DNA from: Naegleria gruberi
Taxonomy: Eukaryota
DNA: 64,000 nucleotides
NCBI GenBank assembly: GCA_000004985.1
Contig: GG738853.1
Reading direction: 5' to 3' (one strand)
A program made the position numbers and the translations under genes. A model generated the notes under the pieces. The model was not told the DNA's origin. It did not search any database and saw nothing but the letters and a program-made list of their open reading frames with translations. Shown here one piece after another: positions 26,667-52,243 of this stretch (positions are counted from its first letter, which is position 1; every line of letters starts with the position of its first letter).

Positions 26667-26814
26667 AAAAATTGAATGCAATTCCTAGGTTGACCTTGTG
26701 CATTTGTGAATGTGAATAAATCGATTTTGCATGCAAATAATAATTAAATTGATATTTAAATAAAAACAATAGAGTAATGATTAAATAAATTTAAAGATTT
26801 TGAAATTCAAAAAA

Positions 26815-27936
26815 ATGTCTGAAAGCAACAACCATAGTGAACCTTCATCATCATCATCATCTGATAATTCCAATGCAAACAATAACAACCAAAAACAACA
26901 AACTTCGGATCAAGATTGGGACACTATTCGTTCCATGACCATTGAAATGAAACCAATAGGTATCTTTCACTCTTGTTATAAATTCAAGAATGCCACACCA
27001 AGACAAGGAGCCTTGGCACCAATCGGAAGAGGACGTCTCAAGATTCAATCACCTCTATTTGCCATGAACAATCAACATCACTCTCTGATGGGAATTGAAC
27101 AATTTTCTCATGTTTGGCTTGTTTATTATTTCCATGATAATAATAATATGGAGAAATTAAATACAATTCATCAGAACAATACTACTAACAATACTACAAA
27201 CGATAGTAATAGTGATAATAATAATAATAATAGTCAGAACAATAATAATAACAGTGAAGAAGAACAAGGCTTGATTCGTCCACAAGTTAAACCACCCCGA
27301 TTGAATGGAAAGAAGGTTGGATTGTTTTCTGTTCGTTCTCCTCATCGTCCTAATCCAATTGGCCTAACATTGGCCACTATTGAACAAGTTGATTTGAAAA
27401 AGGGTGAATTATTATTGAGTGGAGTGGATTTAATTGATGGAACACCAGTTCTAGATATTAAACCATATATTTCAAGATATGATTCAGTATTTGGTGGTGT
27501 TGATATTTATGGAAGAAAGGCAACTGGATATGAAAACAATGATGAGAAGAAGGTTGAATATAAAGAACCTGAATGGATTGATTTGGATCCAGTTGTGGGA
27601 CATATTAATAGTGTAGAATTTACTGAGGAAGCAATTACTCAAATTAAAGAATGTTCAATCGAATTGGATATTGAAAAACAATTTGGATATAAGAATTGGA
27701 TAGATGTTAGAGAGGCCATTGAACAAATGCTCATTCTTGACCCAAGAAGTATCTATAGAAGAAAGAAGTGTGAAGATAAGGTCTATTGGTTCCACTTTGA
27801 TGATTTGAATCTGAGTACAACAATTAAAACAGAGGGTGATAAGACTGTTGCTACAGTTTTCAAATGCGAGATTTGGAGTAAGATTGTAGCATCACTGACA
27901 GAGGAAGAAAAGAGGATTCACCACATCACCAAATAG
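26815..27936 (+). CDS. TsaA/YaeB (TrmO)-like tRNA methyltransferase family protein with Asn-rich insertion
   Basis: Seen: GIFHSCYKFKNATPRQGALAP, HVWLVYYFH, GLFSVRSPHRPNPIGLTLATIEQVD and LSGVDLIDGTPVLDIKPYI are the conserved blocks of the TsaA/UPF0066 fold. A ~60-aa poly-N/T insertion is encoded by an (AAT)n microsatellite. Confidence 0.65.
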   Translation: MSESNNHSEPSSSSSSDNSNANNNNQKQQTSDQDWDTIRSMTIEMKPIGIFHSCYKFKNATPRQGALAPIGRGRLKIQSPLFAMNNQHHSLMGIEQFSHVWLVYYFHDNNNMEKLNTIHQNNTTNNTTNDSNSDNNNNNSQNNNNNSEEEQGLIRPQVKPPRLNGKKVGLFSVRSPHRPNPIGLTLATIEQVDLKKGELLLSGVDLIDGTPVLDIKPYISRYDSVFGGVDIYGRKATGYENNDEKKVEYKEPEWIDLDPVVGHINSVEFTEEAITQIKECSIELDIEKQFGYKNWIDVREAIEQMLILDPRSIYRRKKCEDKVYWFHFDDLNLSTTIKTEGDKTVATVFKCEIWSKIVASLTEEEKRIHHITK

Positions 27937-28121
27937 TTATTCGATACTCCTCGTTGTAATCAAAGATCGTGCATTCCTGATTTACATTCTCTAGTACTAT
28001 TTAAATTGAAAGCTTCAGTATTAGTACATCATAACACCTCAATGCATCTCATCTCCCAAATCTTTCGTTTAAGTTATTGCTTTCACTCTTCCATCTCTGC
28101 TTATTAGCAAATTACAAAAAA

Positions 28122-29470
28122 ATGGTTGGTTTCCTACATAGCTCTGGAAATAATGGAGATGATCTTCAGGAACCTAAATCACCAACCCGAACCAATTCAA
28201 ATGCCAGCAACAATGCTCAAACACAGAGGAAGAAGTCGACTTTTCTTTCTCCTACTCAAGTAGCAACCAGTTTGGCAGATATGAGCGAAGGAAAGAGAAG
28301 AAGTAGTCTTGTTCCAGAAACTCCAGAAAGTAATAAATTGAGAATTGTATTGATAGGAGGTGGTGGTAAGTTATGCATTAGAATTATCGAATAACACATT
28401 GTATTTCTTCAAGGTTCCGGAAAGACAACCCTCTTTAAACAGAGAAAACTTGTGTTAGGGGGCGGTTTTAGTGGTAAGTTTTAATGAGAGATGAGAACCA
28501 TCTAAATTGCATTTCATCACTACACTTCAGAGAGAGAATATGAACAAGCAAGACTCATTGTTCATACAGAGCTTCTTCATGTCATGTACAGTTTGGCATA
28601 TGAATTGTATAATGGCGATTTTGTGTCAAATGAAAATGTAAAACAAATAGCTCACGATTTCTTGAAGATAGTATCGGAGAAGTGTAATCATAACGAACAT
28701 GCTCTCATCAATTGTATTGAGCATATTATTGAAAAATCTCAACTTTGGAAAACATTCTTTACGAAGGAAATATTCAAGCAAGTTATGGAATTTAATCCGA
28801 AATTTTCATCACTTTTTAATTTTTCTGTGGATCCTTACTTTTCAGAATATGATAGAGTAATGCATATGGATTTCAAACCTCTCGAAAAAGATCATATAGT
28901 ATTTCAGAAAAAGACAACAGGTATTGTCGAGTCAAGTTTCGAATATATGAATTCTTTCATTGTTCATCTGTAAGTAACTCATTCTATTAGAATTCAACTA
29001 GATCTATTACCTTTAGATTCGACTCTGGAGGACAAAGAAATGAACGTAAAAAGTGGCCAAACATGTTCTCTCAACCAGTTGATAGCGTTTGGTTTGTTGG
29101 TTCTCTATCCGATTTCACCAAGATGTGTTACGAAAACAATACTCTTAATCGTTTCGAGGACTCCCTGGCAGTATTCAGTGATTGGATTGATTCTAATACT
29201 ACAAAGAATATTAGAGATTTTAGACTTATTCTAACTCATGCTGATGAGCTTGAAGAAATGCATATTAGCCCAGAAACTATCTCATTCCTCAAGTCAAATC
29301 TTATTCCACACGGAAATGCCAAGGAGATTATCGATGGCATCACTGCCAAGTATCAACTCTTAGATAAGAATAACAGGTTGACCCAAGTTTCTGTGATTAA
29401 TTGTACTGATACAGAACAAATTAGAGACTATTTAACCACAACTCTAAATAGTATTATTGATGGCAGATAA
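28122..29470 (+). CDS. Divergent heterotrimeric G-protein alpha-like subunit (4 exons: 28122..28365, 28414..28473, 28531..28969, 29017..29470)
   Basis: Seen: the spliced product has a P-loop LRIVLIGGGG|SGKTTLFKQ (canonical GAGESGKST), switch I FQKKTTGIVES, switch II FDSGGQRNERKKW and a G5-like INCTDT. The NKxD guanine-specificity motif is replaced by LILTHADEL. All three introns are GTAAGT..AG. Confidence 0.65.
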
Positions 29471-29553
29471 ACCATCAATCTATATTGTCCAAATTTGTGT
29501 GAAGATTAGTTCACATTTTATCTGTATTATAATTTTGTGAGAGTAATTTACAA

Positions 29554-30993
29554 TTATTTCTTATCCATTTCCTTCTTGAGGATTGGACAACATTTCTCAA
29601 TAAAGAATTTTGTGTTAAATGTTGTAGATTCGTATAATTCAAACCGAGAAAGTCCATCATCAGATTGAATTAAATGTTTGGAACAAAATTCCATAATCTT
29701 TTTCTGTATCTTCTTACTTGTTGATGGTTGATCCTCGTTAATCTTATCATAAATTGATACAAGCAATAAGAATGCCTTCTTTTCTTCATGATTCCTTATT
29801 GGTTTATCCCCTTCAATCATTTGCAAAACAAGAAATTCCCTAATTAGTTAAAATTTAAGAATAAAAATTTCTCTGTAGTGATATTTGTTTGCTACTTACA
29901 GTGTCTTCTTATAGATTGTAAGGGATTTAATCTTCTTAATCTCTCTTGTATTGAAGAATAATTCTCTATAAAATAAGAATGCTTCTTCTTCCTTTCTTTT
30001 AACACTTTTTGGAATTTTGGCAAGTTTTTCACCATTCTTTGATGATATTCTTCTAAACATTGACATGTCGTTCATGATACACCATTGCCAAGTTTTCAAA
30101 TAATCAACGCTCAGTATCAGGTTGAGTAAACTGACAAGTTGATAATATCTCTTATGAAGGAGTGCTTGTTTCTTTTCCAGAGATTCGTCCTGAAGTACTG
30201 GAAGCGCTGATCGTGGGCTCAGTACCCCTTGTTTCAATCTCTTAAAATTGAAATGTTGTTCACCTAGAAGAAACACATCAGGATTCTCCACAACAGGTGA
30301 AGTTGGAAATACAGTTCCTTCCACCAGTGACGTTGGTGAAACAATCTTCTTCTTTGCCTTCTTACACACTTTTATAAACTCTTCACACTGCCTAGAGTAT
30401 TGCAACATTAATGGAACAGCAATCTGAGTACTATGTTTACAAAAATCATGTAAATCAATCACTTTTAAAACATTATTTTGAAACAGCTTGTCAAACATTT
30501 CACTTGAAAACAACAAGGATTCCTCCTCTGATGTCTCTGCACTCTGTGTAATCTGTGCAATGGTTTTATAATTAAATATAAACGATAGCATGGCATCTCC
30601 TCGTCCAATATTCCTCCTATAAATTAAATCCAATGAATAGTCTTCATATTCCCTCGAGAGTGGTAAAATACATTTCAATAGAGTTTCATCATCAATAAAA
30701 TTCTCCATCATGTAATGAACAACCTCTCTCGGAATCAATCGAAATTGTCTATAATTATTCTTGATAATAATTAAATCAATTGAATCAAAATTAGGATTCT
30801 GATGACATTCTGTATCCATCGATCCAGCATCTGAATACGCTGACTGATCAACAATTCCTCCTCCTCCCAATAACAACGCACCACCACCATTATTACTATT
30901 ATTATTAGTACCACCAACAATATCCGAGGATGAATCAAAGACTTTGGCAAATGAAACATCATTCTCCTTGTTGTTGCCTGGCGAAAAGATCAT
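29554..30993 (-). CDS. Hypothetical protein (2 exons: 29900..30993 and 29554..29839)
   Basis: Seen: ORF 29896..31005 ends at a TAA that overlaps a GTAAGT donor. A 60-nt GTAAGT..AATTAG intron (29840..29899) joins it in frame to ORF 29554..29826 (..IYKKTL|EFLVLQMIEGDKP..). The first ATG is at 30993. No domain recognised. Confidence 0.45.
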
Positions 30994-31162
30994 TTTTTTT
31001 TTCAAAGTACCAAGTTCATAATTTTTGCGTGATGATTTTTGATGATTTTTCTGTTTTTATGAAAAAATTTGTAACAATGGATGAAAATTGTAAACATTTA
31101 AGAAGTTGTTGTAAAGTGGAAAGTTAAACGTTGGTTCATTAGAATGCATTCGTGTTGAGTGG

Positions 31163-31692
31163 TTGTTTATTATTAGTTCAACAAACTTTACAAAAAAAAA
31201 AATGGGTAATTTATTTAGTGTTAATCCACCTGCTACTGAGGCACCATCTATACAGCAGGGAAATAGTTCTCATTCAAATTGTATCAATGAACGCATCATC
31301 AACATTCCAGAACATGCAATTACAGTTTCTAGATCTATTTCATTAATTAACTCAATTGGTAGTAAGAATGCATTCCATAGAGAAACACTTCCTGATCTTC
31401 GAGAATTATTCACGAATTGCCTGAAGAAGTTTTAATGATTGAAATCTTTTCCTTTTTACCACTTTCAGAGTTACCTAAATTATTGGTTCTTTCCAAAGAT
31501 TTCGAAAAGAAATTGAAACAACAGGATGAATTATTCTCTCGTTACTTTTTGCAAGCAAGAATTATCAATGAAAGAACATCAAAAAGAATGACCACTTACA
31601 ATGAATTGAAATTGGTAATTGAACAAGAACTCACATTGAAACAAATGACAGAACGTATATCAAGAATGAAAGAATGTAATAAGGTGTTTTAG
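31163..31692 (+). CDS. F-box protein whose reading frame is interrupted by an apparent +1 shift
   Basis: Seen: ORF 31163..31435 (MGNLFSV.., a possible N-myristoylation start) stops at TAA. An overlapping ORF in the +1 frame encodes a clear F-box (LPEEVLMIEIFSFLPLSELPKLLVLSKDF). No GT..AG intron can join the two. Confidence 0.35.
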
Positions 31693-32006
31693 TTAAAATT
31701 GAATCATAGAAAAGAACATTGTAGATCTTATCTATTGAAAATTAAGTGCACACCATAAATGGTCAGTCATACTTTCGAATTGCTTTTAGTCAAAAGTTTC
31801 TAAAAAAGAATAAATTGTCAGCATACTCGCTTTATGGAAGGACCTTGTTATTCTTTCAACAAGAAAAACCAAACAACAACTTCTCTCATAATCTTCCTCT
31901 CTGGTTGCCTGCCTCTACACTTTCGAATAGTTTCCTCCACAATTTTCAAACATAAAGAAAGTTCTCTAACACACAACTTTCATCACACTAAAAGAATAAT
32001 CGAGAA

Positions 32007-35000
32007 ATGTTCATTCCCTTCCTTCTTCAATTCTTTCTGTGTTGGTTTGTTGTGTGGTGTGTTCAGACTTTTCTCCCGCCACCCGACAAGACTCCAAACA
32101 ACACTTCCTCTACTGTAAATAATAATTATCAACAACACAAAGAAAACAACACGAAGGAATTACATAGAAATGATGAAGGAAAGTTATTGTTTTTGTGTGA
32201 GTTGAGAGAGACGAGGGAGGCTTTGCAAAAGGATTTGGAGGAATTAATTAATACTAATAATAATAATATTCATCATGATGATGATGATGACGATAATTTA
32301 GTAATACAAAAAGAAGAGGATAATGTAGAATTAATATCTAAATTATCAAATAGTGATGAGAAGGAAATATTAATGGAATGTAAAGAAGAATTCGGATTGG
32401 AGACAATTAGTAATGTAATTCAAGACGATCATCATTCTAGTCTTCAAAATACTACTACTGAAGACGAAGAAAAACTTGCCGAATTTATTCAGGCCATCAT
32501 TCATGCTCATGACAGCAATAGACACCTACGAAACCAATATCATTCCATTGAATTGATCGGACAAGTGTGTAGGAATTATTTGGAAAGGAAGGAACACGAT
32601 CAAGAAAGAAACAGTCTCACCAATTTACAATCATTGATTAAAAGAAGATTTAATCAACAGGTTATGAAGAGTGATTTGGAAAAACTAAACTTAGTGACGG
32701 GTTTTTTGCATTCCAAGCAGATACAGTATCGTATTGCTGAGGAGATTGTCATGTTGAGAATGATTCAATCAGTCATTAGAGGAAATTCACAATATTGTGA
32801 TTTCAAGAACCAAGTTAATTGTACTGTTATGGTGCAAAGTCGCTGGAAGTCTGCATATTTGAGAAGGGAGTTTGATGAGATGAAAGAAACTTGTCAAACA
32901 GTTCAGAGTTTAACAAGAGGAAGAACTCTAAGAGCTCATTTCACACAATTTGTACAAAATGCTAGTTTTATTCAAGGTATTATCAGAAAATATCAAACTA
33001 ACAAGCTTGTCAAGGATAATTTGGCAATTATTGAAGTAATTCAATCTTGTATGATTGGTAGAAATGCAGTGAATTCTTTTGTAAACTCAAAAACTTGTAT
33101 TGAGGCTATTCAAGCATTTTTAATTGGAAAATTAGAAAGAATCAGAACTAAAGAATTGGAACATGAGAAATGTAAAGTGGATTGCACATCCACATTACAA
33201 GCCACAATGAGAGGAAATTTAGTGAAGAGAGAAAAGGAGTTTCAATTATCAGCTGCTGAATGCATTCAAGCAACTATTGTAGGTGCCTTAGAGAGAAAGT
33301 TACTTCATCAAGCTTTAACAGAGCAATCATTCTTAACCGATGTTACTTTAATGCAAAGTTTAATTAGAGGAAAAATCGAACAAGATGCAATTGAAAAATG
33401 TTGGAATTTAGTAATATCACTGCAGAGTTCTTTAAGAGGTTACAAGGAAATACAACAATTCGCAACCTCCTTGCAGTCTACGGAGATTATACAGTCTCTG
33501 GTTAGAGGGGCTTGTGAGAGGAGAAAATACTCAACTGCTGTTCAAAATATTGACACGTTGCAAACCTTTTTCAAAGCTCAAATAATCAGGAGCGAATTAT
33601 CCCAATACCAGAATTCTTCTCTTTTACTAGGAGCTTTCTTTGAGAAACATTCAGCCAAAAGGAAATTCAGAGAAGAGAAGCAATCATTGACAAATATTCA
33701 AGCGATATTGAAAGGACATCTTTCTAGAGAGAACTATGCAAGCTCGATATGCAGTGTAATAACTCTTCAAGTTAATCTCAGATCAGCCCTTACAGCCAGA
33801 GAGGTCAGCAAAGAAATGGACGAAATAACCACAATTCAGGCATTTCAAAGAGGTAGTATCTGCAGAAGAGAAGCATCCTCTAGTTTGGCATCAGTTTACT
33901 ACTTGGGAGGATCAATTATTGGAAAAATTGAACGTTCTACCTTTTTGAAATGTTTATCCTCGGTTTATGATATTCAAGCTTCAATAATTGGCTCTATTAA
34001 AAGAAAGAGATTGAAACATATATACGCTCTAGTAGAAAATATCTTAGCTCTAAGAGAAAGAAAGATTGAAGAAGAGCTTTTGCAAAGCAGTATTCAAAAA
34101 ATTACTATTCTCCAATCTATTGTTAGAAGAAACAATGTCCTTACACCTAACGTTGCATTAACAATACAATCGAATGTCAAGGGATATCTTATCAGAAGAG
34201 AAAAACATGAGGCAACGGAGAACATTAAGACTCTATCAGGCTTTCTTCAATCATCTCAATCAAGAAAGGTCCATCAAAGCAAATTGACACAAATCATTCA
34301 ATTGCAAGCAATTATTCGTGGAAATTTATCTAAAAAGTATAGAGATCAAAGGAAATCTGATCTATTATGTTTACAGGGCTTAATAAGAGGTTATTTGTGG
34401 AGAAATGAATCCTATTTGTATATTCCTAATACTAGCTTGGCAGTTGCTCCAATTTCTGTCACTGAAACCATCAAGAGAATATTTGAAGATGAAATCACAG
34501 AGGATTCATCAGATAGCAGTCCTACTGAAGTTATTCCTCCAACCAGTAGAAGAGTTCCATCGTTTGATGCAGTAACAGGAGGAAGATCTAAACTTTCCCA
34601 ACTTATTAAGGACAAAGTTACAAAGTCACCAGTTCTTGATCTTTCAAATATGAATATCGAATCTCTTCCACCAATAGGAACAGACTGTTATCACATAACG
34701 GATTTGAATCTCTCCAAAAATATGTTAGTAACCTTACCAGAGTGGTTCTGTGACAAGTTTCCGAACCTTAAAAGGTTAAATTTGAGTGGAAACAGATTTT
34801 TCGATACTAACAAGTTACTTTCAGAAAATTTATCACCAATTTCTCAAACTTTAACCTTCCTTGATTTGAGCAAGAATAGATTAGAGTACTTTGAATTGCA
34901 TTACATTGATGAAAATGATAACGTTATGACCACAAATTTCCCAAACCTAACTAGTTTGAATTTGAGTTATAACCAACTTTTGAATGTTTCCAGTGAAATG

Positions 35001-38000
35001 TTTGAGCTCGTCTCTTTAAACAAACTTGAAAATCTAGATCTCTCACATAACCAATTGCTTACTTTTCCTACTTTGAAATCTTCTGATCTATTAAAGAGAT
35101 GGAAGGATTTCAAGGTTATTAATTTGGAACACAATTCTTTCCTCCAATCTGAAATTGGTAAGATATTTTACATGTTCAAAAAGCGTCCAGACTTGTTGAA
35201 ACAATTGAAAGGTCAGCTCTATAAGCGAGGAGCTGCCAAGGAGAGTGAATCAAAGCAAGTAATGGATGATTTGGAAATTAATGCAGAGATTGGCGCTCTA
35301 ATGGAGGAGGAAACTCAAACGGAAATGACAGAAATGGCTTATCATGATCAATTCAAATCCAACCTCACCTCACTAGGAAGTATAAGAACTATCAACACTA
35401 ATAGTGACTATGATTCAGAAGATGATGAATTGATGACTGATAGATCTTTCTACAGCTCTACATCTAATTTATCTTCTGGAGGAATTAGTCCTAGATTTAG
35501 TTCTCCAGCTCTTCCAAGAAAGAACAGAGCTAATTCAGCATCTCCATTCTTGTTAGGTCAAACTCCAAAACATAGCAATAATACAGAAAGTACAGAAGGT
35601 TCACCAAGAACTGATCTGGAAAAAGATACCCCAGAACTAGATTCTCCAAAGACACCAAGATTAGAACTTTTAGGACAACCAAAGCCAATATCAATCAATG
35701 TTTTGACTCCAATATCAGGTCAGGCCAAATATAGCTTTATTCAAGATATTCCAACAGTGCAATCAACAAACACACCAACTACTTTCACTCCTCCTGATTA
35801 CGAAACTAAAACTGTAAATATTCCAAAGCTCAATTTGAACTCAGCTCCATCACCTAATACTCCAAACAATCAATTAACTTTGAATGCTGACAATTTCCTT
35901 TCCGCTCGTTCTGCGTCTTCTGATAATATGAGTACACCTAATTCTTCATTGGCAAGTCCTGTTGTTGAATCTGAAAATTTGATCTTTATTCTCAATACTG
36001 AAGCTCTCAAAGACTCTTTCAAAGATTTCTGCGAAAAGGAACACTCTGGAGAGTCTATCGAATTTTATGATGCTGTTTCTTCATTCAAGAAACTCTCTAA
36101 CCCAGTCGAAGTTAGAGATCTTGCCTGTAATATTTATGATTTATTCATAAATCCAATAGGAAAACACGCCCTTAATATAAATAAGAAACAAATAGATAAG
36201 GTAAAATTGGATCTATTCAAAGAGGATGGAACACTCACAGAAGTGGTTTCAACTGGAACTTTTGATTCTTTATTATATTATGTAAAAATGAATTTGATGG
36301 ATCCTCTGAAAAGATACAAGGCAACAGAGGAATTTAAAAAGTTGGATGAATTTGTCAAGATGCCACCTGTGGATATTCCACTACCAAGACCAAAGTGGGG
36401 CACAGCAAGACATCCACTTTTGAAGGTTGGAGAATCTAAAAAACAATTCAGAAGAAAGAAAATTCCATACCTTTCAACTCCAAAACCTTCCACAACCAAC
36501 AGTAATAACAGTACTAGTGAGGACAGAACACCTACTATTCAAGGAAGTATTTCTCCAATCCCAGAGAGAAAGAGTATCAATATCAAACAGATGAAGAATA
36601 GAATTAACAACCTTATGGAAATTTTACACTCCGAGAGAAAGTACCTCTCGTTTCTCATAGATTTATGGGAAATGTATTACATGCCTCTCGTGGATAACAA
36701 ATATTTGAAAGGAACTGAACAACCTGTTTCTAAAAAGAGAAAATCCACTTCTGAGCCACCAAGCACAAGCGAAGATTCGACTCTCAAAAGAAAAATCTCG
36801 TTCATTGATAAGATTTTCAACAAGCAAAAGAGTTCTTCCTCATTAAAGGATGAAGATAAGAGATTGGTCGGTAAGAAGGATGCTCTCGAGATGTTCCCAG
36901 CCAATTTATTTACCATTATCACTTTCAACAAGAGCTTTTTAGTTTCATTGGAGGAGAGATTTGCACTATACAGCGAGGAGCAAGAAGGTTCAATTATTCC
37001 AAGAATGTACAACATGATGATTGGAGATATATTCGAAAAGAGTATTCCATACTTTAGAATTTATGAAAATTATTTGGAAACTTATGAAAGTTGTATGAAC
37101 AAAATTAGACAAGTCAGAGCTCAAAACAAGGAATTTGACACCTGGATTAAGAAACGTAAATCTCACCCAAGAAGTAGAAATTTGGAAATTAATTCACTAC
37201 TTGTGGTTCCTGTTCAAAGAGTTGTCAGATACAAACTCTTAATTGAAAATCTTATTGAAACAACTGAGGAAGATCATCCAGACCATATTCACTTACTTAA
37301 AGCTCTGGATATGATTGTGGATGTTGCCAACCAACAAAACAATAATATTCGTCTTACTAATAACCGTGTCAAGGTGAGAATGTTGACACAACTCTTTGAT
37401 TTTTATGAACAATTGGGAGCTTCCTCAATTTCTTCAGGAGGTGTTGTAGAAGATAATTTATTAATTAGAGAAGGAGATGTAGAGATTCAAATAATGAAGG
37501 ATGAAAAATCCAGTCCAAAACGATCCTACAAGGTTCAGAGAGCATACCTCTTTACTAATGTCATTATATTTGTGGAAAAAACCAAACAAGTTGACAAACA
37601 AATTACACAAGAAGAAAATACCAAATCATCAGAAAGCTCACAAGGTGAAACAAATACCAATATGGAGTTGAGAAAATCCTCATCGTTCGTTATGAGAAAA
37701 TTAAAGAAGAGTGGATCTGAAAATAACCTTACCAACTCACCACCTATGCACAAGTCAATCAAGGTAGAGAAGAAGCATTTCCGTTTGGAGGATGCCTTTG
37801 TTTCAGGAGGATCAGCACTTACCATTGAAATTCGTTTCACAACACCATCCATTCACTCCCTCAAGTCATATTCAACCAATGATTTGACATCTGTTGGAAA
37901 TTTTAATATTGGATCAACAATCAACTCGGCACGTAGTGCAAAATCATCAAACAGTACAGAAGATATGCCAGATTCTGCCAGAAAACGATCTTTCAGTCTT

Positions 38001-38195
38001 TTTGGGAAATTGACAGGCAAACACAAGAAACAAACCAATATTTCCAAAGATCAAACAGTTGCAGTATTGAGTTTTGATTCCTCTGAATTGAAGAATGAAT
38101 GGCTTTTTGATTTGGAATCATCTATCAAGGAAGCCAAACAACGAGCAGCCAACAAGGCAAGCAAACTCCAAATTTCCTCATCCTTTACAAATTAA
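32007..38195 (+). CDS. Giant signalling protein, 2062 aa: IQ-motif array, leucine-rich repeats, RGS domain, DH (RhoGEF) domain, PH-like region
   Basis: Seen: aa ~170-780 hold about 20 IQ-like repeats (IQxxxRGxxxR, e.g. IQSVIRGNSQ, IQGIIRKYQ, LQATMRGNLVKR). aa ~880-1040 are LRRs (LDLSNMNIESLPP.., LNLSGNRF, LDLSKNRL, LNLSYNQL, LDLSHNQL). aa ~1330-1450 are an RGS domain (SGESIEFYDAVSSFKK, ACNIYDLFINP). aa ~1530-1750 are a DH domain (RINNLMEILHSERKYLSFL, NSLLVVPVQRVVRYKLLIENL). A C-terminal PH-like region follows. There is one continuous ORF. Confidence 0.7.
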   Translation: MFIPFLLQFFLCWFVVWCVQTFLPPPDKTPNNTSSTVNNNYQQHKENNTKELHRNDEGKLLFLCELRETREALQKDLEELINTNNNNIHHDDDDDDNLVIQKEEDNVELISKLSNSDEKEILMECKEEFGLETISNVIQDDHHSSLQNTTTEDEEKLAEFIQAIIHAHDSNRHLRNQYHSIELIGQVCRNYLERKEHDQERNSLTNLQSLIKRRFNQQVMKSDLEKLNLVTGFLHSKQIQYRIAEEIVMLRMIQSVIRGNSQYCDFKNQVNCTVMVQSRWKSAYLRREFDEMKETCQTVQSLTRGRTLRAHFTQFVQNASFIQGIIRKYQTNKLVKDNLAIIEVIQSCMIGRNAVNSFVNSKTCIEAIQAFLIGKLERIRTKELEHEKCKVDCTSTLQATMRGNLVKREKEFQLSAAECIQATIVGALERKLLHQALTEQSFLTDVTLMQSLIRGKIEQDAIEKCWNLVISLQSSLRGYKEIQQFATSLQSTEIIQSLVRGACERRKYSTAVQNIDTLQTFFKAQIIRSELSQYQNSSLLLGAFFEKHSAKRKFREEKQSLTNIQAILKGHLSRENYASSICSVITLQVNLRSALTAREVSKEMDEITTIQAFQRGSICRREASSSLASVYYLGGSIIGKIERSTFLKCLSSVYDIQASIIGSIKRKRLKHIYALVENILALRERKIEEELLQSSIQKITILQSIVRRNNVLTPNVALTIQSNVKGYLIRREKHEATENIKTLSGFLQSSQSRKVHQSKLTQIIQLQAIIRGNLSKKYRDQRKSDLLCLQGLIRGYLWRNESYLYIPNTSLAVAPISVTETIKRIFEDEITEDSSDSSPTEVIPPTSRRVPSFDAVTGGRSKLSQLIKDKVTKSPVLDLSNMNIESLPPIGTDCYHITDLNLSKNMLVTLPEWFCDKFPNLKRLNLSGNRFFDTNKLLSENLSPISQTLTFLDLSKNRLEYFELHYIDENDNVMTTNFPNLTSLNLSYNQLLNVSSEMFELVSLNKLENLDLSHNQLLTFPTLKSSDLLKRWKDFKVINLEHNSFLQSEIGKIFYMFKKRPDLLKQLKGQLYKRGAAKESESKQVMDDLEINAEIGALMEEETQTEMTEMAYHDQFKSNLTSLGSIRTINTNSDYDSEDDELMTDRSFYSSTSNLSSGGISPRFSSPALPRKNRANSASPFLLGQTPKHSNNTESTEGSPRTDLEKDTPELDSPKTPRLELLGQPKPISINVLTPISGQAKYSFIQDIPTVQSTNTPTTFTPPDYETKTVNIPKLNLNSAPSPNTPNNQLTLNADNFLSARSASSDNMSTPNSSLASPVVESENLIFILNTEALKDSFKDFCEKEHSGESIEFYDAVSSFKKLSNPVEVRDLACNIYDLFINPIGKHALNINKKQIDKVKLDLFKEDGTLTEVVSTGTFDSLLYYVKMNLMDPLKRYKATEEFKKLDEFVKMPPVDIPLPRPKWGTARHPLLKVGESKKQFRRKKIPYLSTPKPSTTNSNNSTSEDRTPTIQGSISPIPERKSINIKQMKNRINNLMEILHSERKYLSFLIDLWEMYYMPLVDNKYLKGTEQPVSKKRKSTSEPPSTSEDSTLKRKISFIDKIFNKQKSSSSLKDEDKRLVGKKDALEMFPANLFTIITFNKSFLVSLEERFALYSEEQEGSIIPRMYNMMIGDIFEKSIPYFRIYENYLETYESCMNKIRQVRAQNKEFDTWIKKRKSHPRSRNLEINSLLVVPVQRVVRYKLLIENLIETTEEDHPDHIHLLKALDMIVDVANQQNNNIRLTNNRVKVRMLTQLFDFYEQLGASSISSGGVVEDNLLIREGDVEIQIMKDEKSSPKRSYKVQRAYLFTNVIIFVEKTKQVDKQITQEENTKSSESSQGETNTNMELRKSSSFVMRKLKKSGSENNLTNSPPMHKSIKVEKKHFRLEDAFVSGGSALTIEIRFTTPSIHSLKSYSTNDLTSVGNFNIGSTINSARSAKSSNSTEDMPDSARKRSFSLFGKLTGKHKKQTNISKDQTVAVLSFDSSELKNEWLFDLESSIKEAKQRAANKASKLQISSSFTN

Positions 38196-50714: not shown

Positions 50715-52243
50715 ATGGGAGCTTTTGCATCAAAGAAAGATAAAACAGATAACCCTAAAAAACCCCGAAACTCTTCAAATTCTCAACCAACAAATTCCTC
50801 AACAAGTGGTGTCAACAACAATACATCAACTTCATCTTTATCATCTAATTCTTCTACTGGACCTGTGGTAAAGAATTCACTTTCTGTTTTATTGTTGGGA
50901 ACGGGTGAAACTGGTAGGTTTTATATCTCATAGTTTAGTTTGAATAATTAATTGTTTCGTATAAATTTATTCGAAATTAGGTAAATCAACATTATTTAAA
51001 CAACTTGAATTGATTAATGGAGTGGGTATCATTAAAGAAAATGAAAAATCAATGTGGGCTACTCTAATTCATGGCAATGTAATTTCTGACATGAAAACTT
51101 TGATTGGAATTGTTGAGGAAATGGATGTTCAAGAAGTTTCGGATGAAATGCACGAATTAATTCAAGAAATATTAGAATTACCTGATCAAAATGTTACTAT
51201 TAATGAAGAATTATGTGAAAAGTTGAAGAAACTGTGGAATTATGAAGTAGTTAGGGAAGCTTATGATAATAGAGATCAAGCTTTGGATTCTGCTGAATAG
51301 TAAGTTTCTAATAATTTATAGTAATTTAGACGATTTGGGTTTTTAACATTTTCATAACATGAATTTCTCTAATTGTTGTTGACCTTTCGAATAATTATTC
51401 TTTTACAGTCTCTATAATAATATTGATAGAATTGCCAAGCCAGATTACTCACCAACAGTTGATGATGTTCTTCATTGTCGTGTAAAGACACTTGGTGTGC
51501 ATCATGTTGAACTCATGATGGATGGAAACTTTAAATTTAAATTGATTGATGTTGGTAAGTAGTTTCTATAAATGGATTTTGAGAATATTTATTGATTTGT
51601 TTACAATAATTTTTCTATAATTATTATTATAATATTTATAGGTGGTCAACGTTCTGGTAAGTTTTGATGATTTTTCTTGGTAGAATTTAACATTTAAAGA
51701 ACGAAGAAAGTGGCTTGAACGTAAGTTTTTTTATTCGAATTGGATATTTATAGTAATTTAATATTGGAAATGAATAATTGAATGATTGGAATATTGAAAT
51801 AATTTCGAATTGGATGAAAAATAGTCATGTCAGAAGTTGATGCTGTCATTTTCATGACATCTTTAGCTGAATTTGATCAAGAATGTTATGAGGAAAAAGG
51901 ATTTAAACGTGTTGTTGAATCTTTGGAAACATTTGAAAAGGTCATTAACAACAAACTCTTCCAAAAAGTTCCATTCATTCTCATGTTAAATAAGCGTGAC
52001 TTATTCGAGAGGAAGATTGCAAAGAAGAGTTTCAAGAAATATTTCCCAAATTATACAGGTGATGAAAAGAATCCCCAACAATGTATTGATTTCATTTCGA
52101 AAATGTTTTTGGGTAAATGTAAGGAACGATCAACTGATACCATTCTAGTTCAACCTCATTGTGCTATCAGTAAGGAAGAAACAGAACAAATGCTGCAACA
52201 TGCAAAGAACTTTGTAATAGGTCAATACTCAAAGAAGAAGTAG
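50715..52243 (+). CDS. Heterotrimeric G-protein alpha subunit (6 exons: 50715..50913, 50981..51299, 51409..51554, 51642..51656, 51700..51720, 51825..52243)
   Basis: Seen: MGAFASKK (Gly2 myristoylation-type start), an S/N-rich linker, the P-loop LLLGTGETG|GKSTLFKQ, DSAEY|LYNNIDRIAKPDYSPTVDDVLHCRVKT, DV|GGQRS|ERRKWLE|LMSEVDAVIF (switch II split over 15-nt and 21-nt micro-exons), LMLNKRDLF (NKxD) and a C-terminal HCAI (TCAT-like). Every intron is GT(A/G)AG..AG. Confidence 0.75.

What the first reader, a model, noticed from the sequence alone, without database searches (positions are those of the whole stretch)
28122..29470. Divergent G-alpha with NKxD replaced by THAD and a GGGGSGKTT P-loop
- **Seen:** after splicing of three GTAAGT introns the product has recognisable G1 (GGGGSGKTT), switch I (KKTTGIVE), switch II (DSGGQRNERKKW) and G5 (NCTDT) motifs.
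- **Seen:** the G4 guanine-specificity motif NKxD is LTHAD.
- **Established knowledge:** NKxD Asp/Asn contacts the guanine base, and Ras/G-alpha mutants at this site change nucleotide specificity (e.g. to xanthine nucleotides) or lower affinity.
- **Inference:** this is an atypical G-alpha with altered nucleotide handling, or a pseudo-GTPase.
- **Context:** it sits 2.5 kb upstream of the RGS-RhoGEF gene and 20 kb from a canonical G-alpha.
Basis: partly seen in the sequence, partly recalled or inferred. Interest (0 to 1): 0.6.

Follow-up and report, generated by a model that had tools for sequence, protein, structure and literature searches.

The report
Divergent Naegleria G-alpha with altered nucleotide pocket
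This is a real, conserved gene of the amoeba Naegleria gruberi for a G-protein alpha subunit in which the residues that clamp and hydrolyse GTP have been replaced together, so it probably loads GTP by itself and hydrolyses it poorly; it is an uncharacterised variant of a known protein family, not a new kind of system.

Summary
The window is Naegleria gruberi NEG-M. The four-exon model (28122-29470, +) gives a 398-aa protein that matches Pfam G-alpha at 1.6e-60 and folds as a G-alpha. G4 reads THAD instead of NKxD. No alternative splicing can restore NKxD, because the motif lies inside one long exon.

The gene is already annotated as "predicted protein" EFC47748.1.

The switch-I catalytic Arg is Gln. 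The P-loop Glu is Gly. The helical-domain Asp that pairs with the G4 Lys is Phe. The G5 Ala is Cys. There is no N-terminal MG or alphaN helix, and the C-terminal tail is short.

All phosphate/Mg2+ ligands, the guanine-specifying Asp and switch II are intact. The syntenic N. lovaniensis orthologue (43% identity, THLD) shares the pattern, as do four paralogues (TNxD). Together they form a robust clade.

Best reading: a low-affinity, fast-exchanging, intrinsically GTPase-poor G-alpha that is not receptor/Gβγ-coupled. Changed base specificity is unlikely, since the Asp is kept and LRRK2's Roc domain also uses THLD. Deviant catalytic motifs in some Naegleria G-alphas were already noted in the literature. 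Interest is moderate.

The parts
28122..28365 (+). Exon 1: start codon, 70-aa S/T/N/P-rich N-terminal extension, beta1 and the first part of the P-loop (…LIGGG|G)
   Evidence: In-frame stop upstream and no earlier ATG. AF2 pLDDT is below 50 for residues 1-63, with no alphaN helix. There is no MG start.
28366..28413 (+). Intron 1 (48 nt, GTAAGT…AAG), phase 1 inside the P-loop Gly82 codon; absent in N. lovaniensis
   Evidence: Unspliced reading gives GGGGKLCIRIIE* (P0077). Splicing restores GGGGSGKTT. 7 of the 12 intron differences from the second strain lie here.
28414..28473 (+). Exon 2: rest of the P-loop (SGKTT) and alpha1
28474..28530 (+). Intron 2 (57 nt), position conserved in N. lovaniensis (after GGFS)
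28531..28969 (+). Exon 3: all-helical domain, switch I (FQKKTTGIVE, 28902-28931; Gln227 replaces the Arg finger), beta2-beta3
28970..29016 (+). Intron 3 (47 nt), position conserved in N. lovaniensis. The database model EFC47748.1 uses an acceptor 15 nt earlier (29001/29002).
29017..29470 (+). Exon 4: switch II DSGGQRNERKKW (29021-29056), switch III, G4 THAD (29234-29245), G5 INCTDT (29396-29413), shortened alpha5, stop codon

Best explanation
The gene encodes a functional, lineage-specific G-alpha subunit of Naegleria (N. gruberi EFC47748; positional orthologue N. lovaniensis C9374_004820; probably N. fowleri 'Nf Gα12'). Its nucleotide pocket has been remodelled in a coordinated way. The phosphate/Mg2+ half of the pocket is intact (P-loop GxxxxGK[ST], switch-I Thr, DxGGQ), and so is the guanine-specifying Asp. 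It should therefore still bind guanine nucleotide. The residues that clamp the base and ribose and close the helical domain over the nucleotide are all replaced: G4 Asn→Thr and Lys→His, its helical-domain partner Asp150→Phe, the P-loop Glu43–Arg178 pair→Gly/Gln, and G5 Ala326→Cys. Each of these changes in other G proteins lowers affinity or speeds nucleotide release. Loss of the intrinsic Arg finger slows hydrolysis. The inferred behaviour is a 'self-activating', mostly GTP-loaded switch with a poor intrinsic GTPase. Any switching off would depend on RGS-type GAPs, since the RGS-contact residues Thr182, Gly183 and Lys210 and the switch II surface are conserved. It lacks the myristoylation start and the alphaN helix, and its alpha5 tail is about 7 residues short. 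It is therefore probably not part of a receptor-coupled Gαβγ heterotrimer. Shown here: gene structure, family membership by sequence and fold, the substitution pattern, its conservation, and clade monophyly. Inferred: every kinetic and partner statement.
For: Family and fold: Pfam G-alpha E 1.6e-60. The best PDB sequence hit is N. fowleri Gα7, 6NE6. The AF2 model has pLDDT 83, and the top Foldseek hits are Gαq/i/t at TM 0.82 normalised to the target.

Substitution pattern against 128 other G-alpha representatives, in Gαi1 numbering. Changed in all six clade members: E43→G, D150→F/C/N, T177→F, R178→Q/V, N269→T, K270→H/N, L273→E/R and C325→N; A326 is C/S/V in four members and stays Ala in two. 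Kept in all six: G40, G45, K46, S/T47, T181, T182, G183, D200, G203, R205, E207, R208, K209, K210, W211, R242, D272 and D328. Q204 is kept in the window protein and its orthologue.

Orthology and selection: the orthologue is 43% identical and syntenic, with the same pattern (THLD, FQKKTTGIVE, GSGGSGKTS). Against a second strain, exons differ at 0.9% of sites and introns at 7.9%; 4 of the 11 exon differences change an amino acid.

Clade: monophyletic in 50/50 NJ bootstraps, and in 30/30 with the signature columns removed.

Ends of the protein: no clade member starts with MG, against 91/118 of the others. The tail after the G5 Asp is 18-20 residues, against a median of 26.

Precedents: LRRK2 Roc uses THLD. 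The P-loop Glu–Arg finger pair is implicated in exchange control, and self-activating Gα with RGS GAPs were shown in N. fowleri (PMC9283941). PDB 1BH2, the A326S mutant of Gαi1, is among the fold matches; that it is a fast-exchange mutant is my own knowledge. The N. lovaniensis orthologue has Ser at this position.
Against: No biochemistry or transcript data could be consulted here. Expression and splice junctions rest on comparative evidence only. XLG2 of plants also lacks the Arg finger and binds nucleotide 100-1000 times more weakly, and it is argued to act nucleotide-free, so the same could apply here. The paralogue subclade (TNxD) has also lost Q204 or G202, which shows that the lineage tolerates loss of catalysis. 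Effects of single substitutions in Ras or Gαi need not add up in a co-evolved pocket. Absence of an alphaN helix in an AF2 model is weak evidence against Gβγ binding.
Confidence: 0.5

Rival explanations
1. Nucleotide-independent pseudo-GTPase or 'decoy' G-alpha, as proposed for plant XLG2. [quoted passage not shown]
For: It has lost the Arg finger, the G4 Asn and Lys, the P-loop Glu, the interdomain Asp and the G5 Ala. XLG2 has a comparable loss of the Arg finger and G5 Ala, yet keeps RGS and Gβγ binding. A review states that deviant catalytic motifs in some Naegleria Gα suggest reduced or lost nucleotide-dependent activity.
Against: Unlike XLG2, which lost the P-loop Gly and Lys and the DVGG motif, this protein keeps every phosphate/Mg2+ ligand, Q204 and the guanine-specific Asp. 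These are identical in an orthologue that is only 43% identical overall, which implies selection for nucleotide binding. THLD in LRRK2 Roc is compatible with guanine-nucleotide binding (2ZEJ).
Confidence: 0.22
2. Altered base specificity: the THAD motif makes the protein use XTP, ATP or another nucleotide instead of GTP.
For: G4 is the base-recognition motif, and two of its three conserved residues are changed, as is the G5 Ala. G4 variants such as NLxD/NxxE in YchF/OLA1 go with ATP use.
Against: The specificity switch in Ras and Gα mutants comes from changing the Asp (D→N). Here the Asp is invariant in all six clade members. The ATP-using examples have lost or changed that Asp or its context. 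LRRK2 Roc (THLD) is a guanine-nucleotide binder.
Confidence: 0.06
3. An ordinary receptor-coupled G-alpha in which the substitutions are functionally near-neutral.
For: The overall fold, the switch II/III sequences and the helical domain are canonical. N. gruberi has a very large Gα repertoire with lineage-specific diversification.
Against: R178 is Arg in 124/128 other representatives, and N269 and K270 are each conserved in 123/128. Nine positions around the nucleotide change together. There is no MG start, no predicted alphaN helix, and the alpha5 tail is short.
Confidence: 0.1
4. Decaying pseudogene or mis-assembled exon set.
For: It is annotated only as 'predicted protein'. No transcript evidence could be retrieved.
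Against: The ORF is intact in two strains and in a syntenic orthologue. Intron positions are conserved. Exon divergence is about 9 times lower than intron divergence. The functional motifs are identical across species.
Confidence: 0.02

Closest known systems
Naegleria fowleri Gα subunits (Bosch, Jeck & Siderovski 2022, PMC9283941), especially self-activating Nf Gα5/Gα7 (PDB 6NE6) and the uncharacterised 'Nf Gα12' (NF0047740)
   Same: Same genus and same family; 6NE6 is the best PDB sequence hit (E 5.4e-32). Fast exchange with RGS-driven hydrolysis is documented in this system. NF0047740 lies 5 gene numbers from Nf RGS-RhoGEF NF0047690. That matches the 5-gene spacing in N. lovaniensis, so it is probably the orthologue.
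   Different: Nf Gα7 has canonical NKxD (Asp275) and the Arg finger (Arg181). The window protein has THAD and Gln. Nf Gα12 was neither cloned nor assayed, and I could not obtain its sequence, so the orthology is inferred.
Plant extra-large G proteins (XLG2), the best-studied atypical Gα
   Same: It is a Gα-fold protein without the Arg finger and with a changed G5 Ala, a long non-canonical N-terminal extension, and weakened nucleotide binding, either measured (XLG2) or predicted (here).
   Different: XLG2 has also lost the P-loop Gly and Lys and the DVGG motif; these are intact here. There is no Cys-rich/NLS N-terminal domain. The origin is independent: this clade nests with Naegleria sequences.
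LRRK2 Roc domain G4 motif THLD (PDB 2ZEJ)
   Same: It has the identical T-H-x-D replacement of NKxD in a natural guanine-nucleotide-binding domain.
   Different: It belongs to an unrelated GTPase family (ROCO) with no helical domain and no Gα switch architecture. The resemblance is limited to one motif. That Roc has micromolar affinity and needs no GEF is from my own knowledge and was not checked here.
Disease and laboratory mutants of Ras and Gα at the same positions: Gαs R201C/H and Gαi1 R178C (GTPase-deficient), Gαi1 A326S (fast GDP release), Ras N116/K117 (fast exchange), Ras D119N and Gαo D273N (xanthine specificity)
   Same: The natural substitutions here fall on exactly these positions, except for the Asp. 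The structure of A326S Gαi1 (1BH2) is among the fold matches.
   Different: Those are single changes in an otherwise canonical pocket. Here at least eight co-occur and are evolutionarily fixed. The mutant phenotypes are cited from established knowledge and were not tested here.

Membership tests
Heterotrimeric G-protein alpha subunit (Pfam PF00503) | Significant match to the G-alpha profile over its full length | tested here: met
   205.5 bits against a cut-off of 48.8, E 1.6e-60, profile positions 17-331 of 333
Heterotrimeric G-protein alpha subunit (Pfam PF00503) | Ras-like domain with an all-helical domain inserted between G1 and switch I | tested here: met
   The AF2 model has helices 102-211 between beta1/alpha1 and switch I, with pLDDT mostly above 85. 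The top Foldseek hits are all Gα, TM 0.77-0.88 normalised to the target.
Heterotrimeric G-protein alpha subunit (Pfam PF00503) | G1 P-loop GxxxxGK[ST] | tested here: met
   GGGGSGKTT. G40, G45, K46 and S/T47 are kept; the acidic residue E43 is Gly.
Heterotrimeric G-protein alpha subunit (Pfam PF00503) | Intrinsic catalytic Arg in switch I (Gαi1 R178) plus the Mg2+-binding Thr181 | tested here: not met
   The Arg is Gln227 (Arg in 124/128 other representatives). Thr181 and Thr182 are kept.
Heterotrimeric G-protein alpha subunit (Pfam PF00503) | G3 DxxGQ with catalytic Gln and the conserved switch II RxERKKW | tested here: met
   DSGGQRNERKKW
Heterotrimeric G-protein alpha subunit (Pfam PF00503) | G4 NKxD | tested here: not met
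   THAD. Asn and Lys are each present in 123/128 other representatives. Only the Asp is kept.
Heterotrimeric G-protein alpha subunit (Pfam PF00503) | G5 TCA[TV]D with the guanine-contacting Ala | tested here: not met
   INCTDT. Ala326→Cys (Ala in 113/128) and Cys325→Asn.
Heterotrimeric G-protein alpha subunit (Pfam PF00503) | N-terminal lipidation site and alphaN helix for Gβγ and membrane binding; C-terminal alpha5 tail for receptor coupling | tested here: not met
   It starts MVGF, whereas 91/118 others start MG. Residues 1-63 have pLDDT below 50 and show no long helix. The tail after the G5 Asp is 19 residues against a median of 26. This is a sequence-level test only.
Heterotrimeric G-protein alpha subunit (Pfam PF00503) | Binds and hydrolyses GTP; binds Gβγ in the GDP state | not testable with these tools
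   Requires recombinant protein assays
Plant-type extra-large (XLG) atypical Gα | Cys-rich/NLS N-terminal domain fused to a Gα-like domain that has lost the P-loop Lys and DVGG | tested here: not met
   The N-terminus is a 70-aa low-complexity stretch with no Pfam domain. The P-loop Lys and DxGGQ are retained.
Naegleria T-[HN]-x-D Gα clade (defined here) | Shared signature E43G, D150 non-acidic, T177F, R178Q/V, N269T, K270H/N, C325N, together with monophyly | tested here: met
   All six members carry it. NJ bootstrap support is 50/50, and 30/30 without the signature columns.

The most novel reading that the evidence does not exclude
The T-[HN]-x-D proteins are a Naegleria-specific class of G-alpha that has left the receptor–Gβγ cycle altogether. 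They would be soluble switches, GTP-loaded by default, whose signalling state is set only by RGS-type GAPs or by a partner that supplies an Arg finger in trans, as in small GTPases. One of them may be wired to the neighbouring RGS-RhoGEF to control the actin cytoskeleton.
Probability: 0.2. Interest if true: 0.55.

Novelty: new variant of a known kind. Interest (0 to 1): 0.38.

Why it matters
If the inference holds, Naegleria carries a small family of G-alpha proteins that evolution has moved to an extreme: fast exchange, no intrinsic Arg finger, and no receptor or Gβγ coupling. That would be an independent parallel to plant XLGs. It would also be a natural experiment on which pocket residues set nucleotide affinity and which set specificity. 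The N. fowleri orthologue belongs to a pathway proposed as a drug target (PMC9283941) and has not been characterised. Practically, the public N. gruberi gene model appears to carry a 5-residue insertion caused by a wrong acceptor site. The result does not open a long-standing question, and deviant Gα motifs in Naegleria have been remarked on before.

Tried and rejected
1. Wider orthologue survey for THxD. Two word-indexed protein searches returned only the N. lovaniensis orthologue, one paralogue and one more clade member (P0223). They missed sequences known to be in the collection, so absence there is not informative.

2. The exhaustive representative search found no clade member outside Naegleria or Naegleria-like environmental contigs among the best 150. 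Any N. fowleri orthologue could be hidden inside the 50% cluster of P0001.

3. The metagenome contig scan returned 9 loci. Every one that aligned across the G4 region has a canonical Asn there (NKKD or NRSD), and the rest are ordinary Gα at 27-36% identity. This was a dead end.

4. Transcript evidence. Neither the exact 398-aa product nor any spliced contig is on record. The 1.4-1.6 kb contigs that carry the gene are unspliced genomic DNA from a metagenome.

5. No paper mentions the gene identifiers.

6. Anantharaman et al. 2011 reportedly first noted deviant Naegleria Gα motifs, but the paper is not held. I rely on a review's summary of it.

7. The first NJ run used a distance cap that produced invalid logarithms. 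It was repeated with a proper cap.

8. The pseudogene reading, and the idea that alternative splicing could restore NKxD, were both rejected; reasons are given under the observation check.

Full report
**Source and gene model**

Exact-sequence look-ups of four single-exon ORFs from the window return Naegleria gruberi NEG-M proteins. They include the 2062-aa 'rho guanine nucleotide exchange factor' EFC47749.1 at 32007-38195.

The three introns are 48, 57 and 47 nt, all GTAAGT…AG. The ATG at 28122 is preceded by in-frame stops.

The locus is already annotated as EFC47748.1 / XP_002680492.1 / D2V616, 'predicted protein', 403 aa. That model differs only at intron 3. It uses an acceptor 15 nt upstream and inserts SITFR into strand beta3 immediately before DSGGQ.

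The N. lovaniensis orthologue has an intron at the same position and no such insertion (VVKV|VDTGGQ).

Intron 2 is also positionally conserved. Intron 1, inside the P-loop, is specific to N. gruberi.

A metagenome run (ERR1078381) contains a second N. gruberi-like strain that covers 27948-29584 at about 98% identity. Differences fall at 12 of 152 intron sites but only 11 of 1197 exon sites, and 4 of those 11 change an amino acid. That pattern is expected for real introns and a coding sequence under constraint. No transcript-derived sequence could be found.

**Family**

- The protein matches Pfam G-alpha at 205.5 bits (cut-off 48.8) over essentially the whole profile.
- Its best solved relative by sequence is N. 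fowleri Gα7, 6NE6.
- An AlphaFold2 model built on 64 homologues has mean pLDDT 83. It shows a Ras-like domain plus an inserted helical domain, and residues 1-63 are disordered.
- Foldseek against the PDB returns only Gα chains at the top (Gαq, Gαi, Gαt; TM about 0.82 normalised to the target).

**The substitution pattern**

I aligned the protein with human Gαi1 and 132 of the closest representatives from an exhaustive HMMER search. I then read the columns in Gαi1 numbering.

Conserved residues:
- Phosphate and Mg2+ ligands: G40, G45, K46, S/T47, T181, D200, G203.
- The catalytic Q204.
- The RGS-contact residues T182 and G183.
- Switch II: R205, E207, R208, K209, K210, W211.
- Switch III R242, and the guanine-specifying D272.

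Changed residues:

| Gαi1 position | Window protein | Note |
|---|---|---|
| N269 | T | Asn in 123/128 others |
| K270 | H | Lys in 123/128 others |
| R178 | Q | intrinsic Arg finger; Arg in 124/128 |
| E43 | G | P-loop partner of R178 |
| D150 | F | helical-domain residue; Asp or Glu in 116/128 |
| A326 | C | G5; Ala in 113/128 |
| C325 | N | |
| T177 | F | |
| L273 | E | |

The AtGPA1 counterpart of D150 forms a salt bridge with the G4 Lys.

**Conservation and clade**

The top homologue, N. lovaniensis C9374_004820, is 43% identical. It lies in a conserved gene order that includes the upstream genes, the minus-strand neighbour and the LRR-IQ-RGS-RhoGEF. It is the positional orthologue.

It carries GSGGSGKTS, FQKKTTGIVE, DTGGQRNERKKW, THLD and NSTDT. 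That is the same pattern, with Ser at the A326 position.

Four further proteins share E43G, a non-acidic D150, T177F, R178Q/V, N269T and C325N. In them K270 is Asn (T-N-x-D), and three of the four have also lost Q204. One is from N. lovaniensis and three are from environmental contigs. One of those three comes from the same metagenome as the N. gruberi-like strain.

The six proteins form a clade in 50/50 neighbour-joining bootstraps. Support is 30/30 after the signature columns are removed.

None of the six starts with MG, against 91/118 of the other Gα. Their N-terminal regions are 78-226 residues long, against a median of 39. Their tails after the G5 Asp are 18-20 residues, against a median of 26.

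**Mechanism (inferred)**

- Retention of every phosphate/Mg2+ ligand and of Asp272, across an orthologue pair that has diverged at 57% of positions, argues that nucleotide binding is still selected for.
- The residue that determines guanine versus xanthine specificity is the Asp (established knowledge: Ras D119N, Gαo D273N). It is unchanged.
- T-H-x-D is the native G4 of LRRK2 Roc (THLD, 2ZEJ).
- A change of base specificity is therefore unlikely.
- The replaced residues are those that hold the base and ribose and lock the helical domain over the nucleotide.
- The P-loop Glu–Arg finger pair is implicated in control of exchange (PMC9283941).
- The E48–R190 and D162–K288 salt bridges stabilise the AtGPA1 pocket and are missing in XLG2.
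- Gαi1 A326S, Ras N116 and Ras K117 substitutions accelerate nucleotide release (established knowledge).
- Loss of the Arg finger (Gαi1 R178C, Gαs R201C/H) slows hydrolysis by about two orders of magnitude (established knowledge).

Taken together, these points predict a low-affinity, fast-exchanging, GTPase-poor protein. It would be an exaggerated form of the self-activating behaviour measured for Nf Gα5 and Gα7. It would be turned off, if at all, by some of the very numerous Naegleria RGS proteins.

The missing lipidation start, the absent alphaN helix and the shortened alpha5 tail suggest it is not coupled to receptors or Gβγ.

The main rival is a nucleotide-free decoy of the XLG2 type. I rate it lower because XLG2 has lost the P-loop Lys and the DVGG motif, and this protein has not.

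**Context**

- The RGS-RhoGEF 2.5 kb downstream is real (LRR, IQ, RGS and RhoGEF domains). The arrangement is syntenic in N. lovaniensis.
- In N. fowleri the RGS-RhoGEF is NF0047690, and 'Nf Gα12' is NF0047740. That is five gene numbers apart, the same spacing as in N. lovaniensis. Nf Gα12 is therefore probably the orthologue.
- Nf Gα12 was listed as expressed but was not cloned or assayed. Only Nf Gα2 and Gα3 were shown to bind the RGS-RhoGEF.
- The whole neighbourhood is syntenic, so adjacency is not evidence of a functional link.
- A second Gα at about 50.8-52.24 kb keeps NKRD, the Arg finger and an MG start.

**Novelty**

- The gene is in public databases, though unnamed.
- N. gruberi is known for a very large, lineage-specifically diversified Gα set.
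- A review, citing Anantharaman et al. 2011, already states that some Gα of Dictyostelium, Naegleria and plants deviate in conserved catalytic motifs and lack N-terminal membrane-tethering residues.
- What I did not find described is the specific coordinated signature, its conservation in a defined clade, or any biochemistry.

I therefore classify it as a new variant of a known kind, of moderate interest.

Noticed in passing
window 28970-29016 (alternative acceptor at 29001/29002): The public model EFC47748.1 (403 aa) uses an acceptor 15 nt upstream. This leaves a 32-nt intron and inserts SITFR into beta3 just before DSGGQ. The N. lovaniensis orthologue has no such insertion, so the public model is probably mis-spliced.
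   Followed up: partly
window ~29556-31005, minus strand: The gene between the Gα and the RGS-RhoGEF has a borderline Pfam hit to the CYRIA/CYRIB Rac1-binding domain (23.0 bits against a cut-off of 23.1, E 5e-5). It is conserved at the same place in N. lovaniensis (L001 11570-13083). A possible Rac-binding protein next to a RhoGEF may be worth a look.
   Followed up: no
window ~50800-52240, plus strand: A second, multi-exon Gα starts MGAFASKK (myristoylation-type start). It keeps the Arg finger and NKRD, but has Leu in place of the RGS-contact Thr182 (RVKTLG) and a G5 of HCAIS. It also has an intron within or next to the P-loop.
   Followed up: partly
L003/L004 (metagenome run ERR1078381) against window 27948-29584; L002 from the same sample: An environmental metagenome contains an N. 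gruberi-like strain about 98% identical to the window. The same sample holds an intronless 548-aa paralogue of the T-N-x-D subclade (P0078) that has lost the switch II Gln and one Gly (DLAGVRTERKKW).
   Followed up: partly
L001 13449-16546 against window 31005-32007: N. lovaniensis has three extra genes, one of them Nt_Gln_amidase-like, between the minus-strand neighbour and the RGS-RhoGEF. They have no counterpart at this position in the N. gruberi window.
   Followed up: no
window 26800-27936, plus strand: The gene immediately upstream encodes a TrmO-like tRNA methyltransferase (Pfam TrmO_N 2.7e-34 and TrmO_C). It ends 186 nt before the Gα start codon.
   Followed up: no
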